64,000 nucleotides of DNA from an uncultured Candidatus Saccharibacteria bacterium (GCA_964635195.1 CAZWNC010000001.1:1312-65311), one strand, 5' to 3'. Shown: positions 6,979-27,419, numbered from the stretch's first letter. Notes: generated from the sequence alone by a model not told the origin. Made by a program: numbers and translations.

Positions 6979-7001
6979 GCGATCCACTAATCACGACTCC
7001 T

Positions 7002-7361: not shown

Positions 7362-7370
7362 TATTCACCT

Positions 7371-7822: not shown

Positions 7823-7828
7823 ACAGAG

Positions 7829-9108: not shown

Positions 9109-9271
9109 TGCTGAGTGATGTATCGACGTCGAAACGTAAGATGGATAAAAAAATAAAGTATCGACGTCGATACGACTTATCCACACTCGATATACCCTCC
9201 ACACATTGTATCGAGTGTATGTTTGCATGATAATGATAGTACGTTAACGACGAAATCTTGGTCGACGTCGT
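9088..9271. promoter_or_regulatory. Cluster of four copies of palindromic motif (A)TCGACGTCGA(T) spanning murB 3' end to histone-like gene start
   Basis: Perfect 10-mers at 9088-9097, 9123-9132 and 9161-9170. A 9/10 copy at 9262-9271. Spacings about 35-40 bp. Confidence 0.5.
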
Positions 9272-9300
9272 TCATTACTTCGCACATAACCACCACTTCC

Positions 9301-9435
9301 ATGCCAGCAAAGAAAAAGGCGGTAAAGAAGGTTGCAGCTAAGAAGCCTGTAGCAAAAAAGGTTGCAAAGAAAGTAGTAAAGAAGGTTGCAGCCAAGAAGC
9401 CCGCAGCAAAAAAAGTTGCAGCTAAGAAGAAGTAG
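9301..9435 (+). CDS. Lysine-rich histone H1/Hc1-like DNA-binding protein (AKK/KKV repeats)
   Basis: MPAKKKAVKKVAAKKPVAKKVAKKVVKKVAAKKPAAKKVAAKKK. The track ORF starts at 9223 but the basic repeat region starts at ATG 9301. Terminator follows. Confidence 0.6.
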   Translation: MPAKKKAVKKVAAKKPVAKKVAKKVVKKVAAKKPAAKKVAAKKK

Positions 9436-9451
9436 TCTTCTCTCGTGACCA

Positions 9452-9484
9452 CAAAACAAGCCGCATGTTGCGGCTTGTTTTGTG
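9452..9484 (+). terminator. Rho-independent terminator (caagccgca-tgt-tgcggcttg + TTTT)
   Basis: Hairpin then T-run immediately after the histone-like gene stop. Confidence 0.7.
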
Positions 9485-9593
9485 CTACCCATCATGCAGT
9501 ACCGAGTGCAGAGGAAACAGGTGAGCGTCTTTGCATGCGGGTGAATATCCTGTCAACTGGCATCAATACCGATGCGTGGTACAATCGAGTGTA

Positions 9594-12131: not shown

Positions 12132-12147
12132 TAAAGAGTTACTGAAT

Positions 12148-12186
12148 CGTGCATACCAAAAAAAAACGACGTAGCGAGACCACGTC
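12148..12186. terminator. Bidirectional rho-independent terminator (A9-ACGACGT...ACGTCGT-T9) between secA and the convergent minus gene
   Basis: Hairpin flanked by A-run and T-run. Embedded in a larger palindrome ggtatg...catacc. Confidence 0.75.
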
Positions 12187-12221
12187 GTTTTTTTTTGGTA
12201 TGATTGAGTGTGTACGTTGTA

Positions 12222-12656
12222 CTACTTACCACCATTGCCATGCATGCCACCTCTTCCTGCACCCATACCACCGTGCATCATCCCTCCGCGGGCACCCTGA
12301 TTGTTGTTGGGTGAGAATGTCAAACCGAGTTCTTCGCGAAGTTCACTTGCTTTCTCGGTGTCACCATTCTCCATTGCTTCATGCATTTCGACGAACGTAT
12401 CGAAGTTGTCTTGGGTAACAACGCTCGTTATGCGTCCACGATCGCCGTGAAGCTCTTTCCATGCCGCGTAATCACCTTCTTCCATCGCTTTCTCCATTGC
12501 TTCGTGTCGTTCGGGGTCGCATGAACCACGCTGTGCACCAAATCCTGTCATGGGTTCTGCGGCGGATGCGCTCACTGCCATTGCAAACCCTGCACCGAGA
12601 AGTGCCGCAACAGTGCTGAAGGTGATAAGTTTTGTGTTAATCGCTTTTGTTTCCAT
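12222..12656 (-). CDS. Secreted protein with internal HEAMExxxD repeats and Met/His/Gly-rich C-terminus (possible metal-binding periplasmic protein)
   Basis: N-terminal signal peptide (LITFSTVAALLGAGFAMAVSASAAEP). Repeats HEAMEKAMEEGDY / HEAMENGDTEKA. C-terminus GGMMHGGMGAGRGGMHGNGG. Confidence 0.5.
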   Translation of the reverse strand: METKAINTKLITFSTVAALLGAGFAMAVSASAAEPMTGFGAQRGSCDPERHEAMEKAMEEGDYAAWKELHGDRGRITSVVTQDNFDTFVEMHEAMENGDTEKASELREELGLTFSPNNNQGARGGMMHGGMGAGRGGMHGNGGK

Positions 12657-12969
12657 ATATTTTGTTCTATTTATTGTGTAATGTAGGATTAGCCTGATCA
12701 GCCTGCTTTCTTATACGCCTCTTCGTGTCATTTTCTTTCATGCAGAAATGGGTCACATACTGTTGAGGTGTTATATTTTTAACAACATTGTGTGGGTTAT
12801 GGAGCTGTGATTGTGCGTCATGGAGTCGGACACAAGTAAGATTGTAAGTATATGGTGAAAATATTCCAGGTTATACACAGTTTTGCGAGTGTTACCTATG
12901 CGCATGGTGTATACTAAAGTGCAATGCAGGACGCGTATGCCGTAACGCGCGGCCAGCATTTTCCATACA

Positions 12970-14196
12970 ATGCGTGTACTTATGTACGGCTGGGAGTATC
13001 CCCCACACAACAGTGGTGGTCTTGGTGTTGCATGTCACGGCCTCGCTCGCGGACTGGTGGCTGAGGGTGCCGATGTACGTTTCGTGCTTCCACGCAAGTA
13101 TCCCGTAGTCGGCAGTGGAGCGCGTATGGTTTTTGCTGACGAAGCGAATCCGCTTACTTCGGTGCAGGCGGACTCTTTTGCAAATGGGTACATGACCGAG
13201 GATCGGTTGCGTTTTTTACGTGGCCGCTACCCTGAACTTCAGTACGGCCCAAGCTTGTTTGATGAGGTGTTGCGGTACGCCGCACTGTCTCCTATGGTGG
13301 CACTTGCGCATCAGCCGGACGTGATACATATGCATGACTGGCTCTGTTATCCTGCGGGTATGGCGGCAAAGCGGGCGACAGGTGCCCCGCTCGTGGCGCA
13401 CGTGCACGCTACGGAATTTGACCGTACAGGGTTCGGCAAAGTCAATCAAGCCATTTATGAGATAGAGCGTCGGGGTATGTACGAGGCTGATGTGGTGGTG
13501 ACCGTCTCTGACTACACGAAACGCATTGTTGTAGACCGGTATGGTATTGATCCGAATAAGGTTGAAGTGGTACATAACGGTATCGATGTCGACGACGTAG
13601 CCGTCGCAAGTACCATGGAGTCTGATATGCGCAGATTCAAGGGGCTGGGTTGGGGAGTGGTGCTTTTTGTTGGTCGCCTCACCTTGCAAAAGGGTCCGGA
13701 CTATTTCCTCGAAGCGGCAAAAAAGGTTCTCTCACGTCGCACGAATACGATATTCGTTGTATCCGGCTCAGGGGATATGGCACAGACAATCATTGATCGT
13801 GCCGCCTATCTTGGTATTGGGGACAGAGTCCTCTTTACCGGTTTCTTGCGTGAAAAACAGCTCGCACGACTGTACGGACTGGCAGACCTTGTTGTCATGC
13901 CCTCTGTCTCAGAACCTTTCGGGATTGTTCCACTCGAGTCACTTTTAAATGGCACGCCCGTTCTCATCTCAAAACAATCGGGCGTTTCCGAAGTGCTTCG
14001 CAATGCGCTCAAGGTCGACTTTTGGGACACTGATGATATGGCAAGTAAAATAACGGCAGTACTTGATTACCCGTCTCTACGCGAAACGCTTTCCTCCGAA
14101 GGGCGTCGTGAAGCGAGTGTACAGACTTGGAGAAAAGTGGCAGGGCGCTGTATGATGATATATAGGTCTCTTGTAAAGACCGTTCTTCGAGTATGA
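12970..14196 (+). CDS. GT-B fold glycosyltransferase (GT4/GT5-like; probable glycogen/alpha-glucan synthase)
   Basis: N-terminal ...EYPPHNSGGLGVACHGLARGL... glycogen-synthase-like motif. C-terminal E-x7-E. Adjacent to GH57 and GH15 genes. Confidence 0.6.
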   Translation: MRVLMYGWEYPPHNSGGLGVACHGLARGLVAEGADVRFVLPRKYPVVGSGARMVFADEANPLTSVQADSFANGYMTEDRLRFLRGRYPELQYGPSLFDEVLRYAALSPMVALAHQPDVIHMHDWLCYPAGMAAKRATGAPLVAHVHATEFDRTGFGKVNQAIYEIERRGMYEADVVVTVSDYTKRIVVDRYGIDPNKVEVVHNGIDVDDVAVASTMESDMRRFKGLGWGVVLFVGRLTLQKGPDYFLEAAKKVLSRRTNTIFVVSGSGDMAQTIIDRAAYLGIGDRVLFTGFLREKQLARLYGLADLVVMPSVSEPFGIVPLESLLNGTPVLISKQSGVSEVLRNALKVDFWDTDDMASKITAVLDYPSLRETLSSEGRREASVQTWRKVAGRCMMIYRSLVKTVLRV

Positions 14197-15470
14197 GTGC
14201 TGTGTGCATGTATTTTCAAGTGCATCAACCAAGACGTATCAAACGGTACGGTTTTTTCGACATCGGTGCCGATCACACGTATTTCAACGATGACACAGAG
14301 CGTGATACGAACAACGCACGTATTGTTCGTAAGGTCGCAGAAAAGTGTTATCTTCCCGCAAACGCAACACTTCTTGAGAACTTGCGCGCGCATCCGGAAT
14401 TCAAAGTTGCTTTCTCCTTTTCCGGCATAGCACTCGAGCAGTTTGAGGAGTACTCACCTGAAGTCATAGACTCTTTCAAACGTCTCATTGACACAGGGCG
14501 TGTTGAAGTGCTTTCAGAAACATACTACCACTCACTTGCATTTTTGGAATCTCCTGATGAGTTTCGAGAACAAGTCCGCATGCATGCACGAAAAGTTCGC
14601 GACCTCTTCGGTGTGCGCCCGTATGTATTTCGGAATACAGAACTCATCTATCGAAATGATATCGCCGCCATGGTCGCTGACATGGGATATTTGGGTATGT
14701 TGGCCGAGGGTGCCGATCATGTACTTGACTGGCGCAAGCCGACCTATGTGTATCACGCAAAGAATGATCCAAGTTTTAAGCTTCTACTGAAACACTATAA
14801 ACTTTCCGATGACATTGCGTTTCGTTTTTCCAATAAAGGTTGGGAAGAGTGGCCGCTGACCGCGCCAAAATTTGCACGCTGGGTGGATGCGCACAATGGC
14901 GATGGCCACGTGATCAATCTTTTTATGGATTACGAGACGTTTGGTGAGCACCAGTGGGAGGATACCGGCATTTTTGATTTCCTCCGAGCGCTTCCACGGG
15001 AAGTGTTGCGTCACCCTGACAACACCTTTGTGACTCCGACCGAAGCGCTTACGCAGTATCCATCGGTTGGTGAGATTGATGTACCACACTATGTGTCATG
15101 GGCTGATGTTGAGCGCGATCTTTCCGCATGGCGCAGTAATCCGATACAACACGATGCACTTCGAGCACTCTATGCGCTTGAGGGTGAGGTGAAGAAAAAC
15201 AACGATCCAGAACTCCTTCGTGACTGGCGTCGTCTCACCACGTCCGATCATTTTTACTACATGTGTACCAAATGGTGGGAAGATGGCGACGTGCATAAGT
15301 ACTTCAGTCCGTACGATTCGCCGTATGAAGCGTATATAGCATATATGAACGTGCTTAACGATCTCACGTTGCGAGTGCATGCCTCTCCTGAGAATCTTCG
15401 CTCAAAACGTTCATTCTGGGAAGCTCTTACACATAAATCACGTTCCGTATTACAAGCCATTAAGTCATAA
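14193..15470 (+). CDS. Glycoside hydrolase family 57 protein (alpha-amylase/4-alpha-glucanotransferase/branching-enzyme-like)
   Basis: N-terminal YFQVHQPRR motif, FMDYETFGEHQWE catalytic region. 4-nt overlap with upstream GT gene. Confidence 0.7.
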   Translation: MSAVCMYFQVHQPRRIKRYGFFDIGADHTYFNDDTERDTNNARIVRKVAEKCYLPANATLLENLRAHPEFKVAFSFSGIALEQFEEYSPEVIDSFKRLIDTGRVEVLSETYYHSLAFLESPDEFREQVRMHARKVRDLFGVRPYVFRNTELIYRNDIAAMVADMGYLGMLAEGADHVLDWRKPTYVYHAKNDPSFKLLLKHYKLSDDIAFRFSNKGWEEWPLTAPKFARWVDAHNGDGHVINLFMDYETFGEHQWEDTGIFDFLRALPREVLRHPDNTFVTPTEALTQYPSVGEIDVPHYVSWADVERDLSAWRSNPIQHDALRALYALEGEVKKNNDPELLRDWRRLTTSDHFYYMCTKWWEDGDVHKYFSPYDSPYEAYIAYMNVLNDLTLRVHASPENLRSKRSFWEALTHKSRSVLQAIKS

Positions 15471-15474
15471 GCAT

Positions 15475-15900
15475 ATGCCAACAAAGACTATCGCGACAAA
15501 AAAAACAGAAGAGCGGCCGGCTCCAAAGACCAAAAAAACAGCACCAGCACCACGCTCTGTGGCAGTAAAAGGCAAACAAGCTCCGGTTGCGAGCAAGCAG
15601 ACTATTGTCACTAAGAAAGTATCGACAAAAACCAGCGTATGCAAATGTCGCACTGTTTGCAAACCAGAGGAAGCGTTTTGGATACATCATGGCCCGGTGG
15701 TTGTGTCTATCGCAGAGCTCATGTCCGCACTCGCTGATATGAGTGACGAGCAATTTGCCTACCATACAGAGCGAAATGGTAATGACTTTTCAGCATGGCT
15801 CCGAGATTGCTTGGATGAGAAGACGCTTGCAGCTCGTATTGAGCATGCTTCGACTCGCACACATGCATTACAGGCACTCAAGGCGCCTTGCTGTAAATAG
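15475..15900 (+). CDS. Hypothetical protein with Lys/Pro/Ala-rich basic N-terminal region and conserved C-terminal domain
   Basis: MPTKTIATKKTEERPAPKTKKTAPAP... then EEAFWIHHGPVVVSIAELMSALADMSDEQFAYH.... Sits inside the glucan cluster. Confidence 0.45.
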   Translation: MPTKTIATKKTEERPAPKTKKTAPAPRSVAVKGKQAPVASKQTIVTKKVSTKTSVCKCRTVCKPEEAFWIHHGPVVVSIAELMSALADMSDEQFAYHTERNGNDFSAWLRDCLDEKTLAARIEHASTRTHALQALKAPCCK

Positions 15901-15928
15901 CATACCGATAGTATATGTATTTTTGAAC

Positions 15929-17890
15929 ATGGCTCGCTCGCTCGTACTTGGTAACGGGAATGTGCTCATTGTGTATGATGAGTGGGGTCAAGTGCGTGAC
16001 TTCTATTTTCCACAAGTCGGTCTTGAAAATCATGTGGGCGAGCGTCTGATGCATCGAATTGGTGTTTTTGTGGATGGAGCGATGCATTGGCTCTCAGGTG
16101 GCGGCTTTGAGGTAGAGGTCACCTACTGGAGCGACACGCTCGTAGGTAAAGTGCATGCGGTGCATCGTGAGGCAGGTATTGCACTTACTTTTTCCGATAT
16201 TGTGTACAATGAGCACGATATTTACGTGCGCTCTCTCGTTGTTGAAAATCTTTTCCCGCGCGATAGAACAGTCAAATTGTTTTTCAATCAGCAATTTCAT
16301 ATCAGTGAGGCGGAGCGAGGTGATACAGCGTACTATTCACCCGAACTCCAGGCGCTTGTGCACTACAAGGGGCGCAGGGTCATTTTGGTATCAGCACATA
16401 GTGACGGGGATTTTTTTGATGACTATGGTGTCGGCTTGCTTGGTATTGAGGGGAAGGAGGGTACCTGGCGTGATGCGGAAGACGGTGTCCTTTCGAAGAG
16501 TGGTATAGAACACGGAAGCGTTGATTCGGTACTTGGCCTTACCTTGCAGATGCGAAGCAATGCAGCTCGGTCGGTTTCGTATTGGATTGCGGTCGGTCAA
16601 TCGTATCGCGTTGTGGAGCGACACCATCGTGATATTCTGACTCGCGGTCCGGCGCATTTACTACGGACTACGTCTGATTACTGGAAGGCGTGGGTCGATC
16701 GTCCCGGAAAAATCCCCGAAGGTATTGATGTTGAGCTTGCGGCACTGTGTCGTCGATCATTACTTGTCATGCGGACACATGCAGACAATGGCGGGGCGGT
16801 GATTGCGTCGGGAGACTCAAGTATACTGCAGAGTGGGCGGGACACGTATAGTTACTGTTGGCCGCGAGATTCTGCCTACGTCGTGCTCGCATTCCTCGAA
16901 ATGGGTCACATCAACATTTCGCATTCGTTCCACAAGTTTGTCCAAGAGATACTTACCGATGATGGGTATTTGTTACATAAATATCGTACAGACCGTTCGC
17001 TTGGAAGCTCGTGGCATCCCTGGGTGCGCGAGGGTCGTGCTCAGCCCCCAATCCAAGAAGATGAGACTGCAATTACACTAATCACTCTTGGTAGACACTA
17101 CGAGCTCACGCATGACGTTGAGTTCATCGAAGAAATGTACAATCCGTACATTCGACGCGTGGCGGATTTTCTCGCTCGTTACCGTGATAAGAAGACAAAA
17201 CTACCCCTTCCAAGCCACGATCTGTGGGAGGAGCATGTAGGCACCTTTACCTATACATCATGCGTTGTGTACTCTGCACTTTCCACGGCCGCTTCGTTTG
17301 CGAAGCTACTTGGGAAGGAGGTCTCGCGCAAGCGGTGGGCAAGTGCAGCGGAAGAAATGCGTGAGGGTATATTGCGTGTACTTATCTCGGAAAATGGTCG
17401 TGCTGCAAAGCGGGTCGCATGTACGCACGGAGAATCGACCCTCGATGAGACGATTGATGTTTCAAGCTTCTATGGCCTCTTTCGCTTCGGTGTCCTCTCT
17501 TATGACGATCCGATACTTGAGAGGATATATGAACGGACGTGTGCGGCACTGACGACCGACGCGGAGGGTATTGGAGTTGCGCGGTATGACGGAGACCGAT
17601 ATTTTGCACATCATGATGCTGCGAGCAATCCGTGGGTGGTGACCACTTGTTGGATTGCGGAGTACGAAATAGCGCGGGCGAAGAGTGCGCAAGATCTTGA
17701 AATGCCGCGACGACGCCTTGAGTGGATAAAACAGCGGGCAAATATGGCAGGATTGTTTGCGGAACAGTATCACCCACGTACCCATGCACCAACATCGGTC
17801 ACGCCATTGATTTGGAGTCATGCACAGTACATTTTGACATTCCTTGCATATTCAAAAAAATATGCTGAATTCCGAAAGAAACAGGCGTGA
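15929..17890 (+). CDS. GH15-family glucoamylase/glucodextranase-like protein
   Basis: MARSLVLGNGNVLIVYDEWGQVRDFYFPQVG N-domain. (alpha/alpha)6 catalytic region with SGRDTYSYCWPRDSAYV. Track ORF 15743 has an N-terminal extension. Confidence 0.7.
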   Translation: MARSLVLGNGNVLIVYDEWGQVRDFYFPQVGLENHVGERLMHRIGVFVDGAMHWLSGGGFEVEVTYWSDTLVGKVHAVHREAGIALTFSDIVYNEHDIYVRSLVVENLFPRDRTVKLFFNQQFHISEAERGDTAYYSPELQALVHYKGRRVILVSAHSDGDFFDDYGVGLLGIEGKEGTWRDAEDGVLSKSGIEHGSVDSVLGLTLQMRSNAARSVSYWIAVGQSYRVVERHHRDILTRGPAHLLRTTSDYWKAWVDRPGKIPEGIDVELAALCRRSLLVMRTHADNGGAVIASGDSSILQSGRDTYSYCWPRDSAYVVLAFLEMGHINISHSFHKFVQEILTDDGYLLHKYRTDRSLGSSWHPWVREGRAQPPIQEDETAITLITLGRHYELTHDVEFIEEMYNPYIRRVADFLARYRDKKTKLPLPSHDLWEEHVGTFTYTSCVVYSALSTAASFAKLLGKEVSRKRWASAAEEMREGILRVLISENGRAAKRVACTHGESTLDETIDVSSFYGLFRFGVLSYDDPILERIYERTCAALTTDAEGIGVARYDGDRYFAHHDAASNPWVVTTCWIAEYEIARAKSAQDLEMPRRRLEWIKQRANMAGLFAEQYHPRTHAPTSVTPLIWSHAQYILTFLAYSKKYAEFRKKQA

Positions 17891-19585: not shown

Positions 19586-20995
19586 TCAAATTTCCTTGCG
19601 TGCCTGGGTGCGGGGAAGCGTGTACACAGGTGGTTTTCCATGTATGAAATCCTGTGCAAGTGAGTAGGTAAGCGCACCCTGATTTGGCACAACGATCAAG
19701 TCTCCAATTTCTAATCTTGATGCAAAACAGGAGTAGCCCCATCTATCTTGCATCATGCAGAGTGAACCGTAGATCATGGTATCAATTTCCTTGGTGCTCG
19801 GGTGTGTAATGTTTATGATAGGGAAATACTCATCTTCGAAACGTTCATACCCTATCATGTTCATCCCCCCATCGACTATCACGAGCCCGTCTTTACGGTC
19901 TGCGATACGAAGAAGCACGTGCATTGCGCTGTCTGCAATGATGCGACCCGGTTCTGTCAGGTATGTCGCGTTAGGGAGTAGTGGTCGGAGGTGCGTGTCA
20001 ATACCCAGAGCGATACCTTGTGCATAGTCGTGTAATGATGTGGAACGAAACGTGTGATGCTTGTACGGGAAAGGTGCCGGTGTATCGAAGTACTCGTATA
20101 TGGCTTGCACCACCTTTCCTTGAGGTGGATACCATGGGTACTCACCCTCTGTTGCGTCGGGAACGAACCCACCCCCAAAATCATAGAAAAGAATACCGGC
20201 AAGCTCTTCTTGGGAAAAATTTGCTTGGAGGTATTCCGCGACACTATGCATAGTCTCCACGTATGGTTGCGCGTCCGTATTCCAACTTTGATGTACCTGT
20301 ATGCCACAAAGATTGATGTGTTTGTGTGCCCGTGCAATGTCATAGAAACGTCTAAGCTCATTGAGCGGTATCCCGAACTTGTTCCATTTTTTTGCAGAAG
20401 TTATCCTGATACCTGTGTTGATGGTTCGATGGTGTGTTGCTGCAACTTCGGCCAAAAGTTCGAGCTCACGGAAACTGTCCATGTGAATGATCACTCGTGA
20501 GGCATGTTTACATGCGAGGGTTAGTCCTTGATGCGTTTTTGCGGGACCGGTGTATATAATGCGTTTCGCTTTCGCGTTAAGTGCAAGACGTAGCTCGCGT
20601 TCACTCGAGACATCAAGCCCGTATCCGTGTTTGACGATGGTGCGTAACACGTGTGGGTGGTCATTTACTTTCACCGCAAAATACGCGCTTATGTCAGGTA
20701 TGGCGCGTGAGAACTCTTTGGTGAAAGAGGTGAGGGCGTGTTCCAGCGCTTCGTCGTCGAGCACGAAGCACGGTGTGTCATGTTCGTGTGCAATGGTAAG
20801 GAAGCGATCCCGTTTTCGGTGAATAGCACGGACAACCGGTAGCATGCTTTGTGCAGATTCGGTATGGACCTCTTGAAGAATATGTGAAAATTTCTTTCGC
20901 AGGTCTGCCTTCATGGTGTCGGTGACAAGCGGGACGGTTCTTTGTTCTTTCTTTTGCATGAGAGAGATATTACATGAATAGTGCGGAAACTGCAC
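19586..20995 (-). CDS. PLP-dependent fold-III decarboxylase (Orn/DAP/Arg decarboxylase family) with about 60-aa N-terminal extension
   Basis: YFAVKVN PLP-lysine motif, FYDFGGGF glycine loop, EPGR, and C-terminal GSLCMMQDRW active-site Cys region. Confidence 0.75.
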   Translation of the reverse strand: MQFPHYSCNISLMQKKEQRTVPLVTDTMKADLRKKFSHILQEVHTESAQSMLPVVRAIHRKRDRFLTIAHEHDTPCFVLDDEALEHALTSFTKEFSRAIPDISAYFAVKVNDHPHVLRTIVKHGYGLDVSSERELRLALNAKAKRIIYTGPAKTHQGLTLACKHASRVIIHMDSFRELELLAEVAATHHRTINTGIRITSAKKWNKFGIPLNELRRFYDIARAHKHINLCGIQVHQSWNTDAQPYVETMHSVAEYLQANFSQEELAGILFYDFGGGFVPDATEGEYPWYPPQGKVVQAIYEYFDTPAPFPYKHHTFRSTSLHDYAQGIALGIDTHLRPLLPNATYLTEPGRIIADSAMHVLLRIADRKDGLVIVDGGMNMIGYERFEDEYFPIINITHPSTKEIDTMIYGSLCMMQDRWGYSCFASRLEIGDLIVVPNQGALTYSLAQDFIHGKPPVYTLPRTQARKEI

Positions 20996-22259
20996 TGCGG
21001 ATACTCAATCCTCGCGCATTGAGCGACCCTGTGATGGGGTCGTAGAGGGGACTGTCGCTGAAAATGGTTGCAAGTGTAAATTCTTCTTCGATGCGAGCAT
21101 GTGGCACTGAGAGGTCATGAAAGAGAAAAAAAGTATCTAATCCTGAAGGAATGTGTTGTTCGTCTGCAATGTGGCTAATGCCACGCGCAGTCAGCTGGTA
21201 TGTCCCCACCATAGGTATTTTTGAGACATCGGTGTATGCCGGTACGTCGATATCGAGAGTTGCACCCTCATAGTGACTGCTCGGAATATGCGCTTCTTCC
21301 TTTTGAGTCGTTCCGAGTGTGTCACGTACACACGCTCGTGTATACAGCCTCCATGGTTCTTTGTGTGGGGTAAGACCATTTGTGGAAAAAAGCTGTGGTG
21401 TCGCCGCTGAGAGTCGTGGGTTGCATTCAAGCACGTATGCCCTCTCGTTAGACACAATAAAGTCAATGTTCGCCATGCCGGCAAACTTTGTCGCATGCAG
21501 TAGAGCGCTTGTTTTCAGGAGCTCTCCTTGCAGTGAACGAAGTGCCTCGTCTGAGAAATAATTCGTCGGTAACCATTGTATACCCAAGAATATATTTGGA
21601 AAATCATTCTCGTATAGAAAACATTGGCGTCGTATTGCAGAAAATACCGCATGGCCTGCATGGTCTATGATGATGCTTACGCCGATCGGTGTTCCCGGTA
21701 CGTACTCACGCACAAGCACGGACTTCGTAAGCGATGCAGGTGGCACGCTGCCCGCTTGCAGAAATACTGTGCCTTGCATGCCGGATCCGGTACTTTCCTG
21801 AATAACGTACGTCTTAGTGGGTAGCATGTGTGCGGGAGTACTCAATGTTGGCGGTGTGTGCACCGCGTGCTTTCTGAGAAGACGTTGGAATACGCGCTTG
21901 TTTTCGAGGCGAGTTTGTATGCGTGCCGGAGGAGTTATCAGTGTAATTTTGTTCTTACGAGCCCACTCCCGGTACTCCTTTTTTGTTCGATACGGGACTG
22001 CAAGATGAGTGATAGATCGTTCGTGGAGTTTTTCTGCAAGATCGGTCTCAAAGAGTAGTTGATCAAAGGTTGGATAGGGAAGTTCTCGAACGCTTGAGAC
22101 CATGATGAGTTCGCTCTCGTGAAAGTGAGTGTGTGCGTAGGTGGCGACGGGTGTACCTGCAAGTACGATGATGAAGAGTCCGGCGCGATCATGTTCACGG
22201 AAAAACAATGGCTCCATCATGCTAAGCCAGACAGCCAGGGTGTTCGGAGTGTGTTGCAT
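20970..22259 (-). CDS. ATP-grasp family ligase (CPSase/biotin-carboxylase-like ATP-binding domain)
   Basis: Glycine-rich loop ESTGSGMQG. ANIDFIVSNERAYVLECNPR Mg/ATP motif. 26-nt overlap with downstream decarboxylase gene. Confidence 0.65.
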   Translation of the reverse strand: MQHTPNTLAVWLSMMEPLFFREHDRAGLFIIVLAGTPVATYAHTHFHESELIMVSSVRELPYPTFDQLLFETDLAEKLHERSITHLAVPYRTKKEYREWARKNKITLITPPARIQTRLENKRVFQRLLRKHAVHTPPTLSTPAHMLPTKTYVIQESTGSGMQGTVFLQAGSVPPASLTKSVLVREYVPGTPIGVSIIIDHAGHAVFSAIRRQCFLYENDFPNIFLGIQWLPTNYFSDEALRSLQGELLKTSALLHATKFAGMANIDFIVSNERAYVLECNPRLSAATPQLFSTNGLTPHKEPWRLYTRACVRDTLGTTQKEEAHIPSSHYEGATLDIDVPAYTDVSKIPMVGTYQLTARGISHIADEQHIPSGLDTFFLFHDLSVPHARIEEEFTLATIFSDSPLYDPITGSLNARGLSIRSAVSALFM

Positions 22260-22291
22260 GCTCGTGTCACTAGGCTTGTAACTCTGAAGAG

Positions 22292-23698
22292 TTATCGTTT
22301 TGATGTGTTCCTTTTTGTTGGCGATGATGGTGCAAGTTCTTCCTTGTAAATCGTGATGATCTTTTCAGCTACTTCTGCCGGTATGTTTTGAAAACGGTGA
22401 ATGCCAAGGTATAGCTGTGCGAGCTCTCTTTTGCGTGCCTCAAAATCGGCAAGCATTTTTTTCTTGAAAAGATCAATGCTGTAACCGGTGCGACCTCGTT
22501 CTGTTGCCAGTAAGAACGCAAGACCGAGCTCATCCTTGGTGCCATACTCAAGATTACTGACGGTCCGTTTAAAGAAGTCAGCGTACAGGTGGGCATGTTC
22601 TCGATCGAAAAGGTTTTCGGTGAAGCCCATGCCATACAGATCGATATCCGAGGCCGCTGAGAGCGCATACACGTATGCGCATTTTGAGCAGTTTTGGCAC
22701 CATCGAACCTGCTTCGCTTGTTCGTTATTTGCAAAACAGGACATCTGAAATGTACCGTACTCTGAGTACCTGGTGTGCAACACCTTCAGGATTGCGAGCT
22801 CGTAGAGTGGTTCCATTAGACTCACGACTTTGACATCCCTTCCGAGGAGTAGAGACCCAAGAAGGCCTTGTTGGGTTGTCCAGTCAGTGTGTTGGTCATA
22901 TGCGGCAGAGTAGGTGAGAACACCTTCTTTGTCAAAGAATGAGTCGTTACAAGACTGCTCGTTTCCGAGGATGATGTAGTCTGCGTTGAAGTGGTGTGCA
23001 AAGGGAAGCGCAAGTACCGCACACTCAGTCGTATGCAGTCCCCAACCCAGCTCAGTTGAAAATCCCCAGTATTTGCCATATCGAAATATACCGGGAGTGT
23101 TTTGTAAGACGTGTATCTTTACATCGAATTTCTTTTCAAAAGCGGCGGTCATTTTTTGTTTGTGGGCATGTTCAAAATCGTGAGATGGTTCTACGAACAT
23201 CACCAGTATTGGTCGTATCCCGAGCTCTTTGCAAAGTGCAAGCGTGAGCATGCTCTCTTTTCCAAACGAGAACGGTATGACCGCTGTCGGTGCATCTGAC
23301 GGGGGGCGATTGGTGTGGACGGTCTGAATCTCGTTAGTGCCAAAATACGAACGGACATTGAAAAAATCCTTCATGTATGAAACAGAGGATTTTTTGTCGG
23401 AGTGTGCGGTGCAGGGCATGTCGTATATACCGTTTTTGAAAAAAAATGTTTCCGCGAGCGATCGCGCCGTTTTGTAGTGTATGTCCGGAAGGGAAAGAAT
23501 TTGCGGAAGAAACATCGTCGAGCTCACGGTTACCGCGTCTCGCAGCGCCTCTTTTGCTTCTTGCGGGTAGCTCGTCCACACATCCTTTGGGTAACGAATC
23601 GGAAAGTGTTCTTTGTTTACCACGACCGAGACTCCGTCTTTCGTGATTTTGCCATCGACGATCAATTCGTTTGGTAATGGTGCGTGTGGTGTGTTCAT
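22292..23698 (-). CDS. Hypothetical protein with degenerate PP-loop (SFGKES ~ SGGKDS) and C-terminal CxxC zinc-ribbon; possible adenylating ATP-pyrophosphatase
   Basis: VIPFSFGKESMLTLAL resembles PP-loop of Dph6/MJ0570-like ATPases. CQNCSKCAYVYAL Cys pair. Weak assignment. Confidence 0.4.
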   Translation of the reverse strand: MNTPHAPLPNELIVDGKITKDGVSVVVNKEHFPIRYPKDVWTSYPQEAKEALRDAVTVSSTMFLPQILSLPDIHYKTARSLAETFFFKNGIYDMPCTAHSDKKSSVSYMKDFFNVRSYFGTNEIQTVHTNRPPSDAPTAVIPFSFGKESMLTLALCKELGIRPILVMFVEPSHDFEHAHKQKMTAAFEKKFDVKIHVLQNTPGIFRYGKYWGFSTELGWGLHTTECAVLALPFAHHFNADYIILGNEQSCNDSFFDKEGVLTYSAAYDQHTDWTTQQGLLGSLLLGRDVKVVSLMEPLYELAILKVLHTRYSEYGTFQMSCFANNEQAKQVRWCQNCSKCAYVYALSAASDIDLYGMGFTENLFDREHAHLYADFFKRTVSNLEYGTKDELGLAFLLATERGRTGYSIDLFKKKMLADFEARKRELAQLYLGIHRFQNIPAEVAEKIITIYKEELAPSSPTKRNTSKR

Positions 23699-23731
23699 AT
23701 TGCTTTGAGAGTTCGTGCGAATAAATGTATC

Positions 23732-26167
23732 CTACATGGAGTCGGTTTGGAGATGATAGTACTGGGGTCGATTCTCGTACCGTTTGATGGCGACACGTAA
23801 TACCTCCTCCACAAGGTCTGCGTAACTCATTTTTACCAGGCGTGCCGCGCGGGGAAGTATGTCATGCGTGTCCATGTGCTGGTTTGGATTAAGCTCAAGA
23901 ACGTACGGATTGCTATTCTTGTCGACCTTTATCTCTACGATACCATAGTCATGGCAATCGAGTATATTGTATGTGTCGAGGGCGATTTCGGTTATGAGTG
24001 ACTCAAGTTTTTTATTCATGTTCATAGAGGGCTCCTCGATGGATATTTTTTCGTAGAGTGATTTGTCAACCCATTTCGCTTCGTACGGGTAAATGTGCCA
24101 AAGCCCTTCGGGGAGTGCGTCGAATGTTGAGCGTGAGAGAGGAAGAACTCGAAGGTCGTCCTCTTCGCTACCGATAATCGGCACCGCATACTCGTCTCCA
24201 TCAATGTATTCTTCTACGAGCGCCGGACTTCCGAGTTCGTGTATGACGTAAGCAAGTCGTTTTTGGAGCTGTGTCTTGTCGGTAACGACCGACTCATTGG
24301 TGATTCCAATCGAATTATCGGTGTTCGAGGGTTTAACGATAAGTGGATACTTGAGTGTCTGATCGATATCGTCTTCGGTGGTGTACGCATAGTCCCAACG
24401 CGGAGTTGGGATTCCGTGGAAAGAAAGTAGTTTTTTGATACGGATCTTGTCATTACAGAGTCCAAGGGTAAATGGATTTGATCCGGTGTAGGGTATTTGC
24501 AACATGTCCAGAAGTGCGGCCGAATGCGGTTTGAGCATGCTTGAATTATTTATTCTTCCGCAAGCATTAAATACAATATCAACATTACTATTTCGAAGTT
24601 CGTTTATGCAACGCACCGGTTCGTTCATGTCGAAAACGGTTGTCGCATATCCTCGTTCGGCAAGGGCTTCTTCAATGTGTGTGCCAACCGCCGAAAGGGC
24701 GGCCTCAATCACACCATCCTCTTCTTGAAACATGTTGTAGAGAATTCCCACGTGCAAATTGCGTTGGCTTTTGATCGAAGTGCGTCGCATGCGTTCGATT
24801 TTTGCGGCTCCCTCAAGGAGTTCTTTGTTGGTGGAAGCCATGGAAAATCGGTTGCGTCGGAGTGTCTTTCCTATCGAGGATGACGAATGGAACTTCGCAA
24901 CGTCGTACTTGATGTACTTCAAGGCTTCGTTGAAATTGTGTTCGGTATCGAGGGGGTTTTCTCCTGAAACCACAATCCAACCAAGGTACTCGTACCCTTC
25001 GGGCGGAACCAGTACCGCATCACCCGCCTGCTTAAAGAGGCAGAGCTCCTCAACCCCCGGAACTTTTTTGATGCGTTCGTCCATTTCAAGTTTAACGAGA
25101 AGCCCGGACTGTTTCGGAGTGAATGTGTTGCTCATCAAATACTTATGGGGCGTGTCCGGTTTCCGAACTTTTTGGAGGTAGATTCCGAGGGCGATTTTCA
25201 CAGCACCCTCGATGAGATCGACCCCCCATGCCTCTTTGCTAAAGGTATACGTCTCATCGCCCCCCATGCGAAGATTGATTTCAATCGGCACAGGACCTTT
25301 TCGCGTTGTTTTGGCTTCAAAATGAATACATCCGTTCTGTATTCCCAGTTTTTCAAGCACGGTCTCCGCCATTTCCACGAGCGCCTCCTGATCTTTTGCG
25401 GGAAGTTCCGAAGGGATTGCCTGCTGTGTCTCTATGAAAAAAGGTTCCTCGGTTCGGTAATTGTCGACGACGGCGAAATACTTAATTTTTCCGTTTTGAA
25501 GCAGTATGTCGACGTCGACCTCGTCACCATCGATGTAGCTTTCGACGAGAATGTCGAGTCCTTCGTTGAGTGACGATTCGATGTTCGGGGATATGTTACG
25601 TTCAATGTACTCGTAGGTATTGTAAAACTCCTCTTTGTCTTGTGCCTTGATGACAAACGCACTCCCCGAGCCGTAGGTCGGCTTGAGGACAACGGGAAAG
25701 GTGAAAGAGGTGACGACCTGTTCCAAATCCTCCTCGTCTTTGATAAGCATATGTTCCGGGGTGCGAATCCCGTTCTCGGTACAAAATTTTCGAAAGAGAA
25801 ACTTATCACGCACTTGTTTTGCAATAGCGATTGGAACGCCTATCAGGTCGAGTGCGTCTGCTATTTTTGAGGTCAGAAGCACATCGTCTTCCCAGAACGT
25901 TACCACACCATCCACTGACACGCTTGGGTTCGCGCTGAGGAATGTCTCAATATCCTCAATCACTTTTGCGTGGTTCTTGTTGTCGGTAAGTATCCATCGG
26001 TCGATGAAGGGAGCGGCCCAATTCTTTTCATGATGGATAGCAATAATGTGAAGACCGAGCTGTTTCAGTCGCTGTACGATAAACTTCTTCTTTACCGAGC
26101 CGGTATTGACCAACAAGATGGTCTTGCCGACCAGTTCAGAGCGCTCAACATCCTGTTTCTTTTTCAC
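23732..26167 (-). CDS. Two-domain ATP-grasp ligase (N-terminal carnosine-synthase/L-amino-acid-ligase-like + C-terminal D-Ala-D-Ala-ligase-like)
   Basis: N-half has PVVLKPTYGSGSAFV and IEINLRMGGDE. C-half has Ddl-like layout (HVGILYNMF..., IVFNACGRINNSSM..., YPLIVKPSNTDNSIGI, YVLELNPNQ). 811 aa. Confidence 0.7.
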   Translation of the reverse strand: MKKKQDVERSELVGKTILLVNTGSVKKKFIVQRLKQLGLHIIAIHHEKNWAAPFIDRWILTDNKNHAKVIEDIETFLSANPSVSVDGVVTFWEDDVLLTSKIADALDLIGVPIAIAKQVRDKFLFRKFCTENGIRTPEHMLIKDEEDLEQVVTSFTFPVVLKPTYGSGSAFVIKAQDKEEFYNTYEYIERNISPNIESSLNEGLDILVESYIDGDEVDVDILLQNGKIKYFAVVDNYRTEEPFFIETQQAIPSELPAKDQEALVEMAETVLEKLGIQNGCIHFEAKTTRKGPVPIEINLRMGGDETYTFSKEAWGVDLIEGAVKIALGIYLQKVRKPDTPHKYLMSNTFTPKQSGLLVKLEMDERIKKVPGVEELCLFKQAGDAVLVPPEGYEYLGWIVVSGENPLDTEHNFNEALKYIKYDVAKFHSSSSIGKTLRRNRFSMASTNKELLEGAAKIERMRRTSIKSQRNLHVGILYNMFQEEDGVIEAALSAVGTHIEEALAERGYATTVFDMNEPVRCINELRNSNVDIVFNACGRINNSSMLKPHSAALLDMLQIPYTGSNPFTLGLCNDKIRIKKLLSFHGIPTPRWDYAYTTEDDIDQTLKYPLIVKPSNTDNSIGITNESVVTDKTQLQKRLAYVIHELGSPALVEEYIDGDEYAVPIIGSEEDDLRVLPLSRSTFDALPEGLWHIYPYEAKWVDKSLYEKISIEEPSMNMNKKLESLITEIALDTYNILDCHDYGIVEIKVDKNSNPYVLELNPNQHMDTHDILPRAARLVKMSYADLVEEVLRVAIKRYENRPQYYHLQTDSM

Positions 26168-26300
26168 GGTTGTTTTGGAGGGTATAAGATTCGGTATGTT
26201 CTATTTGCATGTCGATTACATGCAGGTGTGGACATGTGGTTGCACGCATAAATATAGCGGTATTACACAATATGTCAATCAATATTGCGCAGGTGTGGTG

Positions 26301-26366: not shown

Positions 26367-26780
26367 ATGAAAGACGATCTCGGCAGGCATCTGATTGCTG
26401 AAATGGTCGTATTTCTCTGTCTGCTGTATCGGGAAGGTGCCACAGCGAAAGAATTGGAGACGCACATGAGTGTCTTCAATAACATGAAGCCCGTGACGCA
26501 GTGTGCGGTCGGGAGGTGGCTCGAAGGTCGTACCCACCCTGATGTGTCCATGGATGTCGGGGATGAATTACTCGAGACACAAGAGCATGTGGCGGTCCTA
26601 TGGTGTTCATTGGAGCATTATCTTGACATACGTACAGACTTCGGTCATCTGGAACGTGACACTCGATCCGGACGGTACTTGGTCACACCCAAAGGGAAGG
26701 TCTATTTCGATGCGAGACGTAAGGCGTTGGAGATCCATCGACTGGTGACCCAAAAAAATGTACACAAACAACCTGCGTGA
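26367..26780 (+). CDS. Hypothetical protein (137 aa), divergent from the ATP-grasp operon; possible regulator
   Basis: Strong RBS. No recognisable motif. Position suggests an operon-associated regulator but this is unproven. Confidence 0.5.
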   Translation: MKDDLGRHLIAEMVVFLCLLYREGATAKELETHMSVFNNMKPVTQCAVGRWLEGRTHPDVSMDVGDELLETQEHVAVLWCSLEHYLDIRTDFGHLERDTRSGRYLVTPKGKVYFDARRKALEIHRLVTQKNVHKQPA

Positions 26781-26932
26781 GGATGGAGAGAGACATGCTG
26801 GTTGCTACACATGTCTCTTTTTGTTGTATACATGCATGTGTTGGTAGTTTTAAAATGCACATACGAAGTTCGAGAGCGGTTCGTTTCTGGGCCCGATTGC
26901 GTACAGCGTGTGAGCGTCGTATTGCGCAGCAT

Positions 26933-26960
26933 AAAAAAGGCCGGTACTTGGACCGGCCTT
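26933..26960 (-). terminator. Rho-independent terminator on minus strand (GGCCGGT hairpin + U6)
   Basis: Minus-strand reading aaggccggtccaagtaccggccTTTTTT, 77 nt downstream of the stop of the 27037..27237 minus ORF. Confidence 0.65.
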
Positions 26961-27036
26961 GTGTGCGTCTGTGTGGTTTGAACTGTGTGCAGACCTGTCG
27001 CGTTGAGTATCAAATACGTCTGCGCGGTTTACCCCA

Positions 27037-27237
27037 CTACGTAGGTATCGTTTCGCGAAGGGAAGTACCTTTTGACACACAAACATCAGATTTCCAGCGA
27101 GAAATGCAGTGACCGGTGTCTGATGGGCAGGTGGACTTTTGGATTTTTCGTGCGCAGCGTCCTGATTCGGGTAAGCGGTTACACTCCTTCAGTTGTGCTC
27201 CAAGCGGAGTCTCAAGTTCAGTGCTGTAAGAAATCAT
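27037..27237 (-). CDS. Small Cys-rich protein (66 aa, 5-6 Cys, no signal peptide)
   Basis: SD GAGGA 9 nt upstream of ATG. Own terminator. Cys spacing C-x8-C-x8-C-x6-C-x8-C. Could still be non-coding. Confidence 0.4.
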   Translation of the reverse strand: MISYSTELETPLGAQLKECNRLPESGRCARKIQKSTCPSDTGHCISRWKSDVCVSKGTSLRETIPT

Positions 27238-27288
27238 TGTCTAAATCCTCGTATTGTGTATTTGTAAAGAGCAGTTTGAAACAGAAAC

Positions 27289-27304
27289 CCTGACACGTGT
27301 CAGG
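27289..27304. promoter_or_regulatory. 16-bp perfect palindrome CCTGACACGTGTCAGG plus two further TGACAC/GTGTCA half-sites (27344-27349, 27385-27390) in divergent promoter region
   Basis: Seen directly. Lies between the small Cys-rich gene (-) and the helicase gene (+). Confidence 0.5.
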
Positions 27305-27419
27305 CGTGTGCGTTGTTTCTACGCGTTGGTAATGCCGACAACCTGACACCTGGTGCGTTTTAGATACAATCTGAACGATAACCGTGTCAGCACTGTGCTA
27401 GCATCAATATACGGAGGGG

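What the first reader, a model, noticed from the sequence alone, without database searches (positions are those of the whole stretch)
19586..26167. Orphan four-gene operon built from three ATP-grasp domains, a PP-loop-like ATPase and a fold-III PLP decarboxylase
Four co-directional, tightly packed minus-strand genes (overlap or gaps of 34 nt or less) encode, in transcription order: (1) an 811-aa fusion of two ATP-grasp ligase domains whose C-terminal half has the D-Ala-D-Ala-ligase layout, even though a housekeeping ddl exists separately at 45417; (2) a 468-aa protein with a degenerate PP-loop (SFGKES) and Cys-rich tail; (3) a 429-aa CPSase-like ATP-grasp enzyme; (4) an Orn/DAP/Arg-family PLP decarboxylase with an N-terminal extension. 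Three carboxylate-amine ligase domains plus a decarboxylase implies stepwise ATP-dependent amide-bond formation on an amino-acid-derived scaffold, as in NRPS-independent pseudopeptide or polyamine-conjugate synthesis (cf. the ATP-grasp/decarboxylase logic of BtrJ/BtrK, L-amino-acid ligases, MysC/MysD). The gene combination matches no canonical pathway I know. A divergent small gene (26367) and a palindromic operator region lie immediately upstream.
Basis: partly seen in the sequence, partly recalled or inferred. Interest (0 to 1): 0.8.

Follow-up and report, generated by a model that had tools for sequence, protein, structure and literature searches.

The report
Uncharacterised peptide-building operon with MurL-like enzyme
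A real, tightly packed four-gene operon in a candidate-phyla-radiation bacterium combines three ATP-grasp ligase domains, a distant relative of the peptide epimerase MurL and a PLP decarboxylase; the same genes recur together in dozens of uncultured bacteria (part of the set also in archaea) and probably build a small D-amino-acid-containing peptide-amine that nobody has characterised.

Summary
Four co-directional minus-strand genes sit at 19586-26167 with the stated sizes, domains and spacing. They are not housekeeping genes. The Ddl-like half of the 811-aa protein and the decarboxylase both score below the NCBIfam cut-offs for Ddl and LysA and lack their substrate-binding residues, and a true ddl lies elsewhere in the window.

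The main new result concerns the "degenerate PP-loop" protein. It belongs to a conserved family (182 representatives at E<=1e-30, 1,439 at E<=1e-3). Its only characterised relative is MurL, the ATP-dependent epimerase of a peptide's C-terminal residue. Its core fold is QueC-like.

Synteny shows two modules. The MurL-like gene lies next to a Ddl-type ligase in CPR bacteria and in Bathyarchaeia, Asgard and DPANN archaea. ATP-grasp C lies next to decarboxylase D in 32 of 34 testable loci.

My inferred mechanism has three steps. The ligases make a short peptide. The MurL-like enzyme adenylates and inverts its C-terminal residue. C and D add an amide-linked decarboxylated residue. Substrates, product and role are unknown. 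I rate it a new variant of a known kind, of moderately high interest.

The parts
26251..26278 (-). Sigma-70-like promoter (TTGACA, 16 nt, TATATT) about 85 nt upstream of gene A
   Evidence: Consensus scan gives 11 of 12 matches. Both hexamers are conserved in the syntenic relative L005 while the surrounding spacer diverges. Function was not tested.
24848..26167 (-). Gene A, N-terminal half (residues 1-440): L-amino-acid-ligase-type ATP-grasp domain
   Evidence: Pfam ATPgrasp_N, ATP-grasp_4 (1.8e-31) and LAL_C2 (48 bits, cut-off 29.4). The best solved relative is the L-amino acid ligase BL00235, 3vot, 1.1e-26. K162, E296, R300, G302, G303 and D304 are invariant in 26 fusion proteins. The GTG start is conserved in L005.
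23732..24760 (-). Gene A, C-terminal half (residues about 470-811): divergent D-Ala-D-Ala-ligase-like ATP-grasp domain
   Evidence: Dala_Dala_lig_C 3.8e-31. NCBIfam Ddl scores 192.8 bits, below the cut-off of 243. It aligns to DdlB structures at 1e-20 to 1e-24. ATP/Mg residues are kept (K97, K144, E180, K215, E270, N272), but S150N, Y216W, R255I, D257E, G276H and S281D.
22292..23698 (-). Gene B: MurL-like PP-loop (QueC-fold) ATP pyrophosphatase with SFGKES loop and a four-Cys motif
20970..22259 (-). Gene C: three-domain ATP-grasp carboxylate-amine ligase (ATP-grasp_3 type)
19586..20995 (-). Gene D: fold-type III PLP decarboxylase of a distinct subfamily (probable true start ATG at 20959)
   Evidence: Orn_Arg_deC_N 9.3e-29 and Orn_DAP_Arg_deC 5.2e-8. 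NCBIfam lysA scores 144.9, below the cut-off of 297.9, and FslC scores 93, below 500. It is about equally distant from LysA, BtrK and FslC structures. The PLP-Lys, His, GGG, EPGR and Cys motifs are conserved, but the family motif YGSLC(T/M)PxDxWGY aligns opposite GPLCESGD of T. maritima LysA.

Best explanation
This is a conserved, uncharacterised, NRPS-independent peptide-assembly operon of a Paceibacterota-like CPR bacterium. It is built from two evolutionary modules.

Module 1 (genes A and B) pairs amino-acid ligases with a MurL-like enzyme. The intact LAL domain of A condenses two amino acids. B then adenylates the new C-terminal alpha-carboxylate. By analogy with MurD2/MurL, this inverts that residue from L to D, giving an L-Xaa-D-Xaa peptide. 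The divergent Ddl-like domain of A then binds or extends that D-terminated product.

Module 2 (genes C and D) is an almost obligatory pair of ATP-grasp ligase and fold-III PLP decarboxylase. It attaches a further amino acid through an amide bond and removes its alpha-carboxyl, or decarboxylates first and then couples the amine. The end unit is therefore an amine. The predicted product is a short D-residue-containing peptidyl-amine.

Shown here: the gene structure, the domain and fold assignments, the failure of the Ddl and LysA membership tests, and the conserved linkage. Inferred: the order of steps, epimerisation by B, catalytic competence of the Ddl-like domain, and the substrates, product and cellular role.
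For: 1. Operon structure and a conserved promoter.

2. The LAL domain has invariant catalytic residues.

3. B has a PP-loop/QueC fold, which is that of carboxylate-adenylating enzymes. MurL is the only family in NCBIfam matched by all 26 members tested (best 6.4e-12); the only other matches were 1-3 members to 'hypothetical protein' models at E 9e-4 to 5e-3, and no QueC model matched. MurL itself needs ATP/Mg, releases AMP and inverts a peptide's terminal L-Glu right after a ligase adds it (PMC8788868, PMC5808125).

4. In genomes of 80 species, B sits next to a Ddl-type ligase. This is so in 40 of 48 judgeable archaeal loci and 13 of 23 CPR loci; in CPR it is usually the LAL+Ddl fusion.

5. 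Recurrent neighbours act on dipeptides with a D or L C-terminus. They are a relative of L-Ala-D/L-Glu epimerase (169 bits) in both CPR and archaea, an M19 dipeptidase, Amidohydro_3 and a gamma-glutamyl cyclotransferase.

6. C and D are linked. 32 of 34 C loci with enough flank have D within 2.5 kb, also outside CPR. 18 of 19 with 5 kb upstream also carry an A-like gene, B or both, in several gene orders.

7. C resembles PylC, LAL and peptide ligases. D is as close to the conjugate decarboxylases BtrK and FslC as to LysA.
Against: 1. No enzyme was assayed, and B scores 32.7 bits against a MurL cut-off of 700, so epimerisation is an analogy. QueC-fold enzymes also make amides and nitriles.

2. 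The Ddl-like domain of the window's protein has Ile at the Arg255 position, so it may not ligate.

3. A PLP decarboxylase needs a free alpha-amino acid centre. Its substrate must therefore be a free amino acid or a side-chain-linked residue, and nothing here shows which.

4. Many related clusters carry extra genes that the window lacks (a dipeptide epimerase, a faint DegT-like protein, a FemAB-like GNAT). The window's product may therefore differ from theirs.

5. Archaeal loci keep only the ligase plus the MurL-like gene, in peptide-catabolic surroundings. That could point to salvage rather than biosynthesis.
Confidence: 0.5

Rival explanations
1. B is not an epimerase but a fourth amide-forming or amidating enzyme. 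Like QueC, Cap9, NAD synthetase or beta-lactam synthetase, it would adenylate a carboxylate and pass it to ammonia, an amine or an intramolecular nitrogen. The operon would then make an amidated, cyclised or branched pseudopeptide without any D-residue.
Against: No QueC, NAD-synthetase or asparagine-synthetase model matches B or any of 25 relatives in NCBIfam, whereas MurL matches all 26 over the same collinear span in proteins of similar length. No glutaminase or ammonia-donor partner is seen in the clusters. The recurrent neighbours are dipeptide epimerases and D-specific dipeptidase families.
Confidence: 0.2
2. The operon is an alternative peptidoglycan-precursor route in a CPR bacterium, a MurD2/MurL-type bypass. 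It would supply D-Glu- or D-Ala-terminated peptides, or a cross-bridge or stem-peptide modification. One example would be in-situ decarboxylation of the free D-centre of peptide-bound meso-DAP to lysine.
For: The homology is to MurL, Ddl and L-Ala-D/L-Glu epimerase. FemAB-like GNAT (Acetyltransf_6) genes occur in the Microgenomates versions. From my own knowledge, CPR bacteria make murein. D lacks the residues after the catalytic Cys that a LysA structure has at that position, which would fit a peptide-embedded DAP.
Against: The ligase plus MurL-like core is most common in Bathyarchaeia, Thorarchaeota and other archaea, which as far as I know lack murein. No Mur-ligase, MraY or MurG gene lies adjacent in the neighbourhoods I annotated. 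The window has its own canonical ddl 19 kb away, not linked to the operon. At least one CPR bacterium has a working glutamate racemase (Penalver 2024, cited in PMC11974145). B is far below the MurL cut-off.
Confidence: 0.15
3. The system salvages or converts D-amino-acid-containing dipeptides taken up from hosts or necromass, rather than building a new metabolite. The ligase and the MurL-like enzyme would together re-set stereochemistry at the cost of ATP.
For: Archaeal loci place the pair beside M19 and M24 peptidases, Amidohydro_3, gamma-glutamyl cyclotransferase, a dipeptide epimerase and aldehyde:ferredoxin oxidoreductase. One DPANN locus has DUF1611 next to B. From my own knowledge DUF1611 is the DgcN family of D-Glu catabolism; the DgcN-DgcA pathway is mentioned in PMC10845958.
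Against: ATP-grasp ligases are biosynthetic and effectively irreversible. The CPR version adds two more ligase domains and a decarboxylase, which fits assembly better than breakdown. No transporter is consistently linked.
Confidence: 0.1
4. The four genes are ordinary housekeeping genes that happen to be adjacent: lysA, a second ddl, purine/CPS-type ATP-grasp fragments and a tRNA-modifying PP-loop enzyme.
For: The top-scoring named models are lysA, Ddl and CPSase-like.
Against: Every one of these matches is far below its curated cut-off: lysA 144.9 against 297.9, Ddl 192.8 against 243, CPSase 68 against 1027. Ddl substrate and catalytic residues are changed, and the residues after the catalytic Cys differ from LysA. 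The same four families are linked in many distant genomes.
Confidence: 0.02

Closest known systems
MurD2/MurL alternative peptidoglycan pathway of Xanthomonas (a ligase adds L-Glu, then the ATP-dependent epimerase MurL inverts it)
   Same: A ligase gene is adjacent to a MurL-homologous gene. B is of similar length and collinear with the MurL model over positions 139-360 of 447. The PP-loop fold is compatible with the AMP-forming adenylation proposed for MurL.
   Different: The partner ligase is an ATP-grasp enzyme (LAL and Ddl type), not a Mur ligase. B scores 32.7 bits against a cut-off of 700. There is no UDP-MurNAc context. The family is abundant in archaea. The cluster also carries an ATP-grasp plus decarboxylase module.
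L-amino acid ligases (BL00235, BacD/YwfE, RizA, TabS, DdaF)
   Same: The N-half of A has the LAL domain set including LAL_C2, finds BL00235 as best solved relative, and has invariant catalytic Lys, Glu and Arg.
   Different: It is fused to a Ddl-like domain in one polypeptide of about 800 aa. The specificity is unknown. It scores below the equivalog cut-offs (DdaF 63 against 840).
D-alanine--D-alanine ligase (Ddl, VanA family)
   Same: The C-half of A has the Ddl fold and ATP/Mg residues. The archaeal stand-alone partners of B keep nearly all Ddl catalytic residues.
   Different: The window's domain has S150N, Y216W, R255I, D257E, G276H and S281D, and scores below the Ddl cut-off. A genuine ddl exists elsewhere in the window.
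Decarboxylases acting on amino-acid conjugates, each with a ligase partner: BtrK (with BtrJ, butirosin) and FslC (with FslA, rhizoferrin). MfnA/MfnD of methanofuran synthesis follows the reverse order.
   Same: D is about as similar to BtrK (1e-19) and FslC (2.5e-18) as to LysA. It is almost always paired with ligase C. C weakly matches the MfnD model (4.6e-5).
   Different: There is no acyl carrier protein as in Btr and no NIS synthetase as in Fsl. MfnA is, as I recall, a fold-I decarboxylase. FslC scores 93 against a cut-off of 500.
QueC and Cap9 (PP-loop enzymes that adenylate a carboxylate)
   Different: There is no significant sequence match to QueC models for B. B has extra N-terminal (about 135 aa) and C-terminal (about 120 aa) domains. 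There is no queuosine or CBASS gene context.

Membership tests
[quoted passage not shown] | Sequence reaches the curated equivalog cut-off (700 bits) | tested here: not met
   B scores 32.7 bits, E 2.8e-8. All 26 relatives match, best E 6.4e-12, and none comes near the cut-off. B is a distant homolog, not an ortholog.
[quoted passage not shown] | Encoded next to its partner ligase MurD2 (Mur-ligase family) | tested here: not met
   The neighbours are ATP-grasp ligases (LAL+Ddl fusion, or stand-alone Ddl-like). No Mur ligase was found in the neighbourhoods I annotated.
[quoted passage not shown] | ATP/Mg-dependent, AMP-forming, unidirectional L-to-D inversion of a peptide's C-terminal residue | not testable with these tools
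   Only the compatible fold (PP-loop ATP pyrophosphatase) and the conserved SFGK(E/D)S loop could be shown.
[quoted passage not shown] | Host genome lacks glutamate racemase and D-amino-acid aminotransferase | not testable with these tools
   Only a 64-kb window is available. None of the window ORFs I scanned is a murI, but not all ORFs were scanned and the rest of the genome is unseen.
D-alanine--D-alanine ligase (Ddl) | Reaches the NCBIfam Ddl cut-off (243 bits) | tested here: not met
   The C-half of A scores 192.8 bits. The window's other ddl scores 246.4 bits.
D-alanine--D-alanine ligase (Ddl) | Substrate and transition-state residues of E. coli DdlB (E15, S150, Y216, R255, S281, L282; roles from my own knowledge of Shi & Walsh 1995) | tested here: not met
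   E15 is kept, but S150N, Y216W, R255I, S281D and L282I. The R255 equivalent is Arg in only 11 of 26 fusion proteins.
D-alanine--D-alanine ligase (Ddl) | ATP-grasp nucleotide and Mg residues (K97, K144, E180, K215, E270, N272) | tested here: met
   All are present in the window's protein. K215 is lost in 11 of 26 relatives.
L-amino acid ligase (LAL) | ATP-grasp core plus the LAL-specific C-terminal domain 2, with catalytic Lys, Glu and Arg | tested here: met
   LAL_C2 scores 48 bits against a cut-off of 29.4, and ATP-grasp_4 gives 1.8e-31. BL00235 matches at 1.1e-26. K162, E296 and R300 are invariant.
L-amino acid ligase (LAL) | Forms alpha-dipeptides from unprotected L-amino acids | not testable with these tools
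   This needs an enzyme assay.
Diaminopimelate decarboxylase (LysA, TIGR01048) | Reaches the curated cut-off (297.9 bits) | tested here: not met
   D scores 144.9 bits.
Diaminopimelate decarboxylase (LysA, TIGR01048) | Fold-III catalytic set (PLP-Lys, His, Gly-rich loop, EPGR, catalytic Cys) | tested here: met
   FAVKVN, VHQSW, FGGGF, EPGR and YGSLC are conserved in 14 family members.
Diaminopimelate decarboxylase (LysA, TIGR01048) | Glu-Ser after the catalytic Cys (C-E-S), which I recall as recognising the distal centre of DAP | tested here: not met
   D has C-M-M opposite C-E-S of T. maritima LysA. The family has C-(T/M)-P. The role of these residues is from my own knowledge.
BtrJ/BtrK-type carrier-protein pathway | Substrate tethered to a dedicated acyl carrier protein (BtrI) | tested here: not met
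   No PP-binding/ACP domain is present in A-D or in the Pfam annotations of the two related clusters looked up.
QueC (7-cyano-7-deazaguanine synthase) | Matches QueC sequence models; queuosine gene context | tested here: not met
   B has no QueC hit at E<=0.1. One archaeal relative has a sub-threshold hit at 0.0055. Only the fold is shared.

The most novel reading that the evidence does not exclude
A Ddl-type ATP-grasp ligase coupled to a MurL-like adenylating epimerase may be an ancient, racemase-independent way of making peptides with a D-configured C-terminus. It would be shared by CPR bacteria and by Bathyarchaeia, Asgard and DPANN archaea, which as far as I know lack murein. CPR bacteria would have extended it, with an LAL domain, a further ATP-grasp ligase and a dedicated decarboxylase, into a pathway for a so far unknown D-amino-acid-containing peptidyl-amine of the cell envelope or of the symbiont-host interface.
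Probability: 0.25. Interest if true: 0.85.

Novelty: new variant of a known kind. Interest (0 to 1): 0.65.

Why it matters
MurL is so far a single characterised enzyme, known as a curiosity of Xanthomonas-type peptidoglycan synthesis. Its mechanism is unsolved, and a sequence search with the B-family profile found no related solved structure.

This locus shows that a much larger MurL-related family exists: 182 representatives at E<=1e-30 and 1,439 at E<=1e-3. The family is almost always wired to Ddl-type or LAL-type ligases. It is concentrated in the least understood prokaryotes, namely CPR bacteria, Bathyarchaeia, Asgard and DPANN archaea.

If the inference is right, it gives a testable route to D-amino-acid peptides without racemases. 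It also gives a new family of stereo-inverting enzymes for biocatalysis, and a conserved small-molecule pathway in organisms otherwise known for having almost no biosynthesis.

The four-gene version in this window is the minimal form of the CPR cluster. That makes it a convenient candidate for heterologous expression.

Tried and rejected
- Exact look-up of the window's proteins B and C in the contig index found no record, so the source contig could not be retrieved.
- The precomputed label PF26298 on some B relatives could not be resolved with the local Pfam copy. Only sub-threshold DUF6395 and PAPS_reduct hits appeared.
- A sequence search of the B-family profile against PDB gave nothing meaningful.
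- The afdb50 fold library was not available.
- tblastn of B against plasmids gave no match.
- I tried to approach true MurL through the weakest listed representatives. They match MurL no better than B does.
- Literature searches for MurL homologs with ATP-grasp partners, for CPR D-glutamate supply, and for amidoligase, PP-loop and decarboxylase neighbourhoods found no description of this cluster.
- The palindromic operator is not conserved in the nearest relative. The repeat finder at 10 nt minimum reported nothing upstream of A.
- The small divergent gene as a regulator of the cluster is rejected as a conserved component. It has no Pfam or NCBIfam match and is conserved only in L005.
- The housekeeping interpretation is rejected on cut-offs and residues.
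- Rfam and the tRNA scan found nothing in or beside the operon.

Full report
**Observation.** The window carries four co-directional minus-strand ORFs exactly as reported:

- A: 23732-26167, 811 aa, GTG start.
- B: 22292-23698, 468 aa.
- C: 20970-22259, 429 aa.
- D: 19586-20995, 469 aa.

The spacers are 33 nt (A-B) and 32 nt (B-C). C and D overlap by 26 nt. The overlap becomes a 10-nt gap if D starts at the ATG at 20959, which is where similarity to the nearest relative begins. A sigma-70-like promoter (TTGACA-16-TATATT, 26278-26251) lies about 85 nt upstream of A. Both hexamers and the GTG start are conserved in the syntenic relative L005 while the rest of the spacer diverges. The surrounding genes (FtsZ, FtsA, UvrA/B/C, thioredoxin reductase, TGT, CTP synthase, a canonical ddl) show an ordinary chromosomal region. 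The organism is a CPR bacterium: the closest locus, 78-89% identical at protein level and syntenic from ftsA to gene D, is a Paceibacterota MAG.

**Protein A.** The N-half of A is an L-amino-acid-ligase-type ATP-grasp. It has ATPgrasp_N, ATP-grasp_4 and the LAL-specific LAL_C2 domain above its cut-off. Its best solved relative is LAL BL00235. Its catalytic K162, E296 and R300 are invariant in 26 fusion proteins.

The C-half of A is Ddl-like but fails the Ddl tests. It scores 192.8 bits against a cut-off of 243. Aligned to E. coli DdlB, it keeps the ATP/Mg residues but has S150N, Y216W, R255I, D257E, G276H and S281D. Across the CPR fusions the K215 and R255 equivalents are retained in only 15 and 11 of 26 sequences. 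Even so, the domain is as conserved overall as the N-half. It is therefore under selection but may not be a conventional ligase. A genuine ddl that passes the cut-off lies at 45312-46484.

**Protein C.** C is a complete three-domain ATP-grasp with an invariant ECNPR motif. Its high-confidence model (pLDDT 90.1) is closest to biotin carboxylase, PylC, PurD, a Streptomyces ATP-grasp peptide ligase, LALs, PGM1 and BesA. That makes it a carboxylate-amine ligase of unknown specificity.

**Protein D.** D has all the catalytic motifs of fold-III decarboxylases. It scores 144.9 against 297.9 for lysA. It is about equally distant from LysA, BtrK and FslC structures. Its family motif YGSLC(T/M)PxDxWGY lies where T. 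maritima LysA has GPLCESGD.

[quoted passage not shown] Adenylation of the alpha-carboxylate is the proposed mechanism, and no conserved domain had been recognised in it (PMC8788868, PMC5808125). B is thus a distant homolog of MurL with a fold that fits that mechanism, but it is not an ortholog (32.7 bits against 700). An exhaustive profile search gives 182 cluster representatives at E<=1e-30, 545 at 1e-10 and 1,439 at 1e-3. Every source name shown for B relatives is 'hypothetical protein'.

**Synteny, module 1.** A scan of one genome per GTDB species found 239 relatives of B. The best 80 loci comprise about 25 CPR (or CPR-like) loci and about 55 archaeal loci: Bathyarchaeia, Thorarchaeota, Borrarchaeum, Woesearchaeota, Iainarchaeum and Methanosarcinales MAGs. 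BLAST of my own ORF calls shows B next to a Ddl-type ligase almost everywhere. In archaea the ligase is a stand-alone protein of about 335 aa immediately downstream, adjacent in 40 of 48 judgeable loci. That count is an underestimate, because overlapping ORFs were dropped by my gene filter. In CPR it is the LAL+Ddl fusion of about 800 aa. The archaeal Ddl-like proteins keep nearly all DdlB catalytic residues.

Recurrent neighbours are as follows:

- In archaea: a threonine-synthase-like fold-II PLP enzyme (PRK06381, 348 bits), a small protein with a GNAT-like motif (seen by eye), gamma-glutamyl cyclotransferase, Amidohydro_3, and M19 and M24 peptidases.
- In both domains: a relative of L-Ala-D/L-Glu epimerase.
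- In CPR: a faintly DegT-like protein and, in Microgenomates, FemAB-like GNATs.

**Synteny, module 2.** Homologs of C are rare (22 hits in the word-indexed search of 5.8 billion sequences). A metagenome scan with the C profile gave 48 confirmed loci. 32 of the 34 with at least 1.5 kb downstream have D within 2.5 kb. 18 of the 19 with at least 5 kb upstream also carry an A-like gene, B or both. The orders vary: A-B-...-C-D, B-A-C-D, B-C-D and C-D alone. Some of these loci are near-duplicates. The C-D pair also occurs in a deltaproteobacterial MAG beside a PIG-L deacetylase, and in another context with a 681-aa Ddl-like protein. The window, L005, L011 and L023 carry the minimal contiguous A-B-C-D form.

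**Mechanism.** What is shown is the gene structure, the folds, the failed membership tests and the linkage. The rest is inference. The pairing of a ligase with a MurL-like enzyme mirrors MurD2/MurL. An adenylated C-terminal residue of an N-acylated amino acid is chemically prone to inversion (my own knowledge of peptide chemistry). The recurring neighbours act on dipeptides with D or L C-termini.

I therefore propose three steps. The LAL domain makes a dipeptide. B inverts its C-terminal residue at the cost of ATP. The Ddl-like domain binds or extends the D-terminated product. For the near-obligatory C-D pair there are two possibilities. One is to attach an amino acid through a side chain and then decarboxylate it, as in FslA/FslC or BtrJ/BtrK. 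The other is to decarboxylate first and then couple the amine, as in MfnA/MfnD. Either way the end unit is an amide-linked amine.

I give this about 0.5 overall. Confidence is higher (about 0.8) for 'NRPS-independent assembly of a small peptide-like molecule involving carboxylate adenylation'. It is lower (about 0.3) for the exact order of steps and for epimerisation.

**Rivals.**

- B could be an amide-, nitrile- or lactam-forming enzyme like its structural neighbours (0.2).
- The operon could feed peptidoglycan (0.15). The homologies favour this. Against it are the archaeal distribution, the lack of Mur genes nearby, the unlinked canonical ddl, and evidence that a CPR bacterium has a working glutamate racemase.
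- It could be a salvage system for D-peptides (0.1), as the archaeal neighbourhoods suggest.
- The housekeeping reading is excluded (0.02).

**Novelty and verdict.** I found no description of this cluster or of the B family in the searchable literature, and the source names I saw for B and C relatives are all 'hypothetical protein'. It is built from known kinds of enzymes and resembles MurD2/MurL in logic, so I class it as a new variant of a known kind. Its interpretation is partly supported: right about the chemistry class and the non-housekeeping nature, but it missed the MurL relationship and the modular, widely conserved nature of the cluster. It also over-counted secure ligase activities and included two unconserved upstream features. 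Interest: 0.65.

Noticed in passing
window 61696-62997 (+): A 433-aa protein matches Pfam MATCAP (microtubule-associated tyrosine carboxypeptidase, 8.1e-22). This is an unexpected family for a CPR bacterium.
   Followed up: no
window 26781-27419: This 640-bp stretch has no convincing gene. It carries a minus-strand terminator-like hairpin (26960-26937, 9-bp GC-rich stem plus T-run) and a minus-strand promoter-like site (27434-27406). That suggests a transcript of about 450 nt or a small ORF (27037-27237, minus strand). There is no Rfam match.
   Followed up: no
window 26367-26780 (+): This divergent 137-aa gene has a strong GGAGG ribosome-binding site and no Pfam or NCBIfam match. It is conserved (42% identity) only in the closest relative L005, not in other clusters, so it is probably not part of the system.
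   Followed up: partly
window 12970-17890 (+): A glycogen-type gene set: a GT4/GT5 glycogen-synthase-like protein, a GH57 enzyme and a GH15 glucoamylase-like protein of 715 aa.
   Followed up: no
L003/L009 (Jacksonbacteria), locus coordinates 1-10758 of L003: An expanded version of the cluster. It has two B paralogs (49% and 54% identical to the window's B), a dipeptide-epimerase-like MR_MLE gene, a faintly DegT-like gene and a faintly LPG_synthase_C-like gene, between the LAL+Ddl fusion and C-B-D.
   Followed up: partly
L052 (unclassified archaeon MAG), 3000-12672: This archaeal locus carries three stand-alone Ddl-like genes, a FemAB-like GNAT, another ATP-grasp, a D-type decarboxylase, B and a lysine-2,3-aminomutase-like radical SAM gene. 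It is the only archaeal locus seen with the decarboxylase.
   Followed up: partly
L030 (Iainarchaeum MAG), 11409-12497: B is followed by a DUF1611 protein (1e-58). From my own knowledge this family includes DgcN of D-glutamate catabolism, which is another hint of D-amino-acid chemistry around B.
   Followed up: no
L014, L017, L016, L018, L021, L032, L056: Several B-bearing contigs with CPR-type gene content and 45-48% identity to CPR proteins are labelled Bdellovibrionota, Acidobacteriaceae or Gammaproteobacteria in their MAG titles. These may be binning errors.
   Followed up: no
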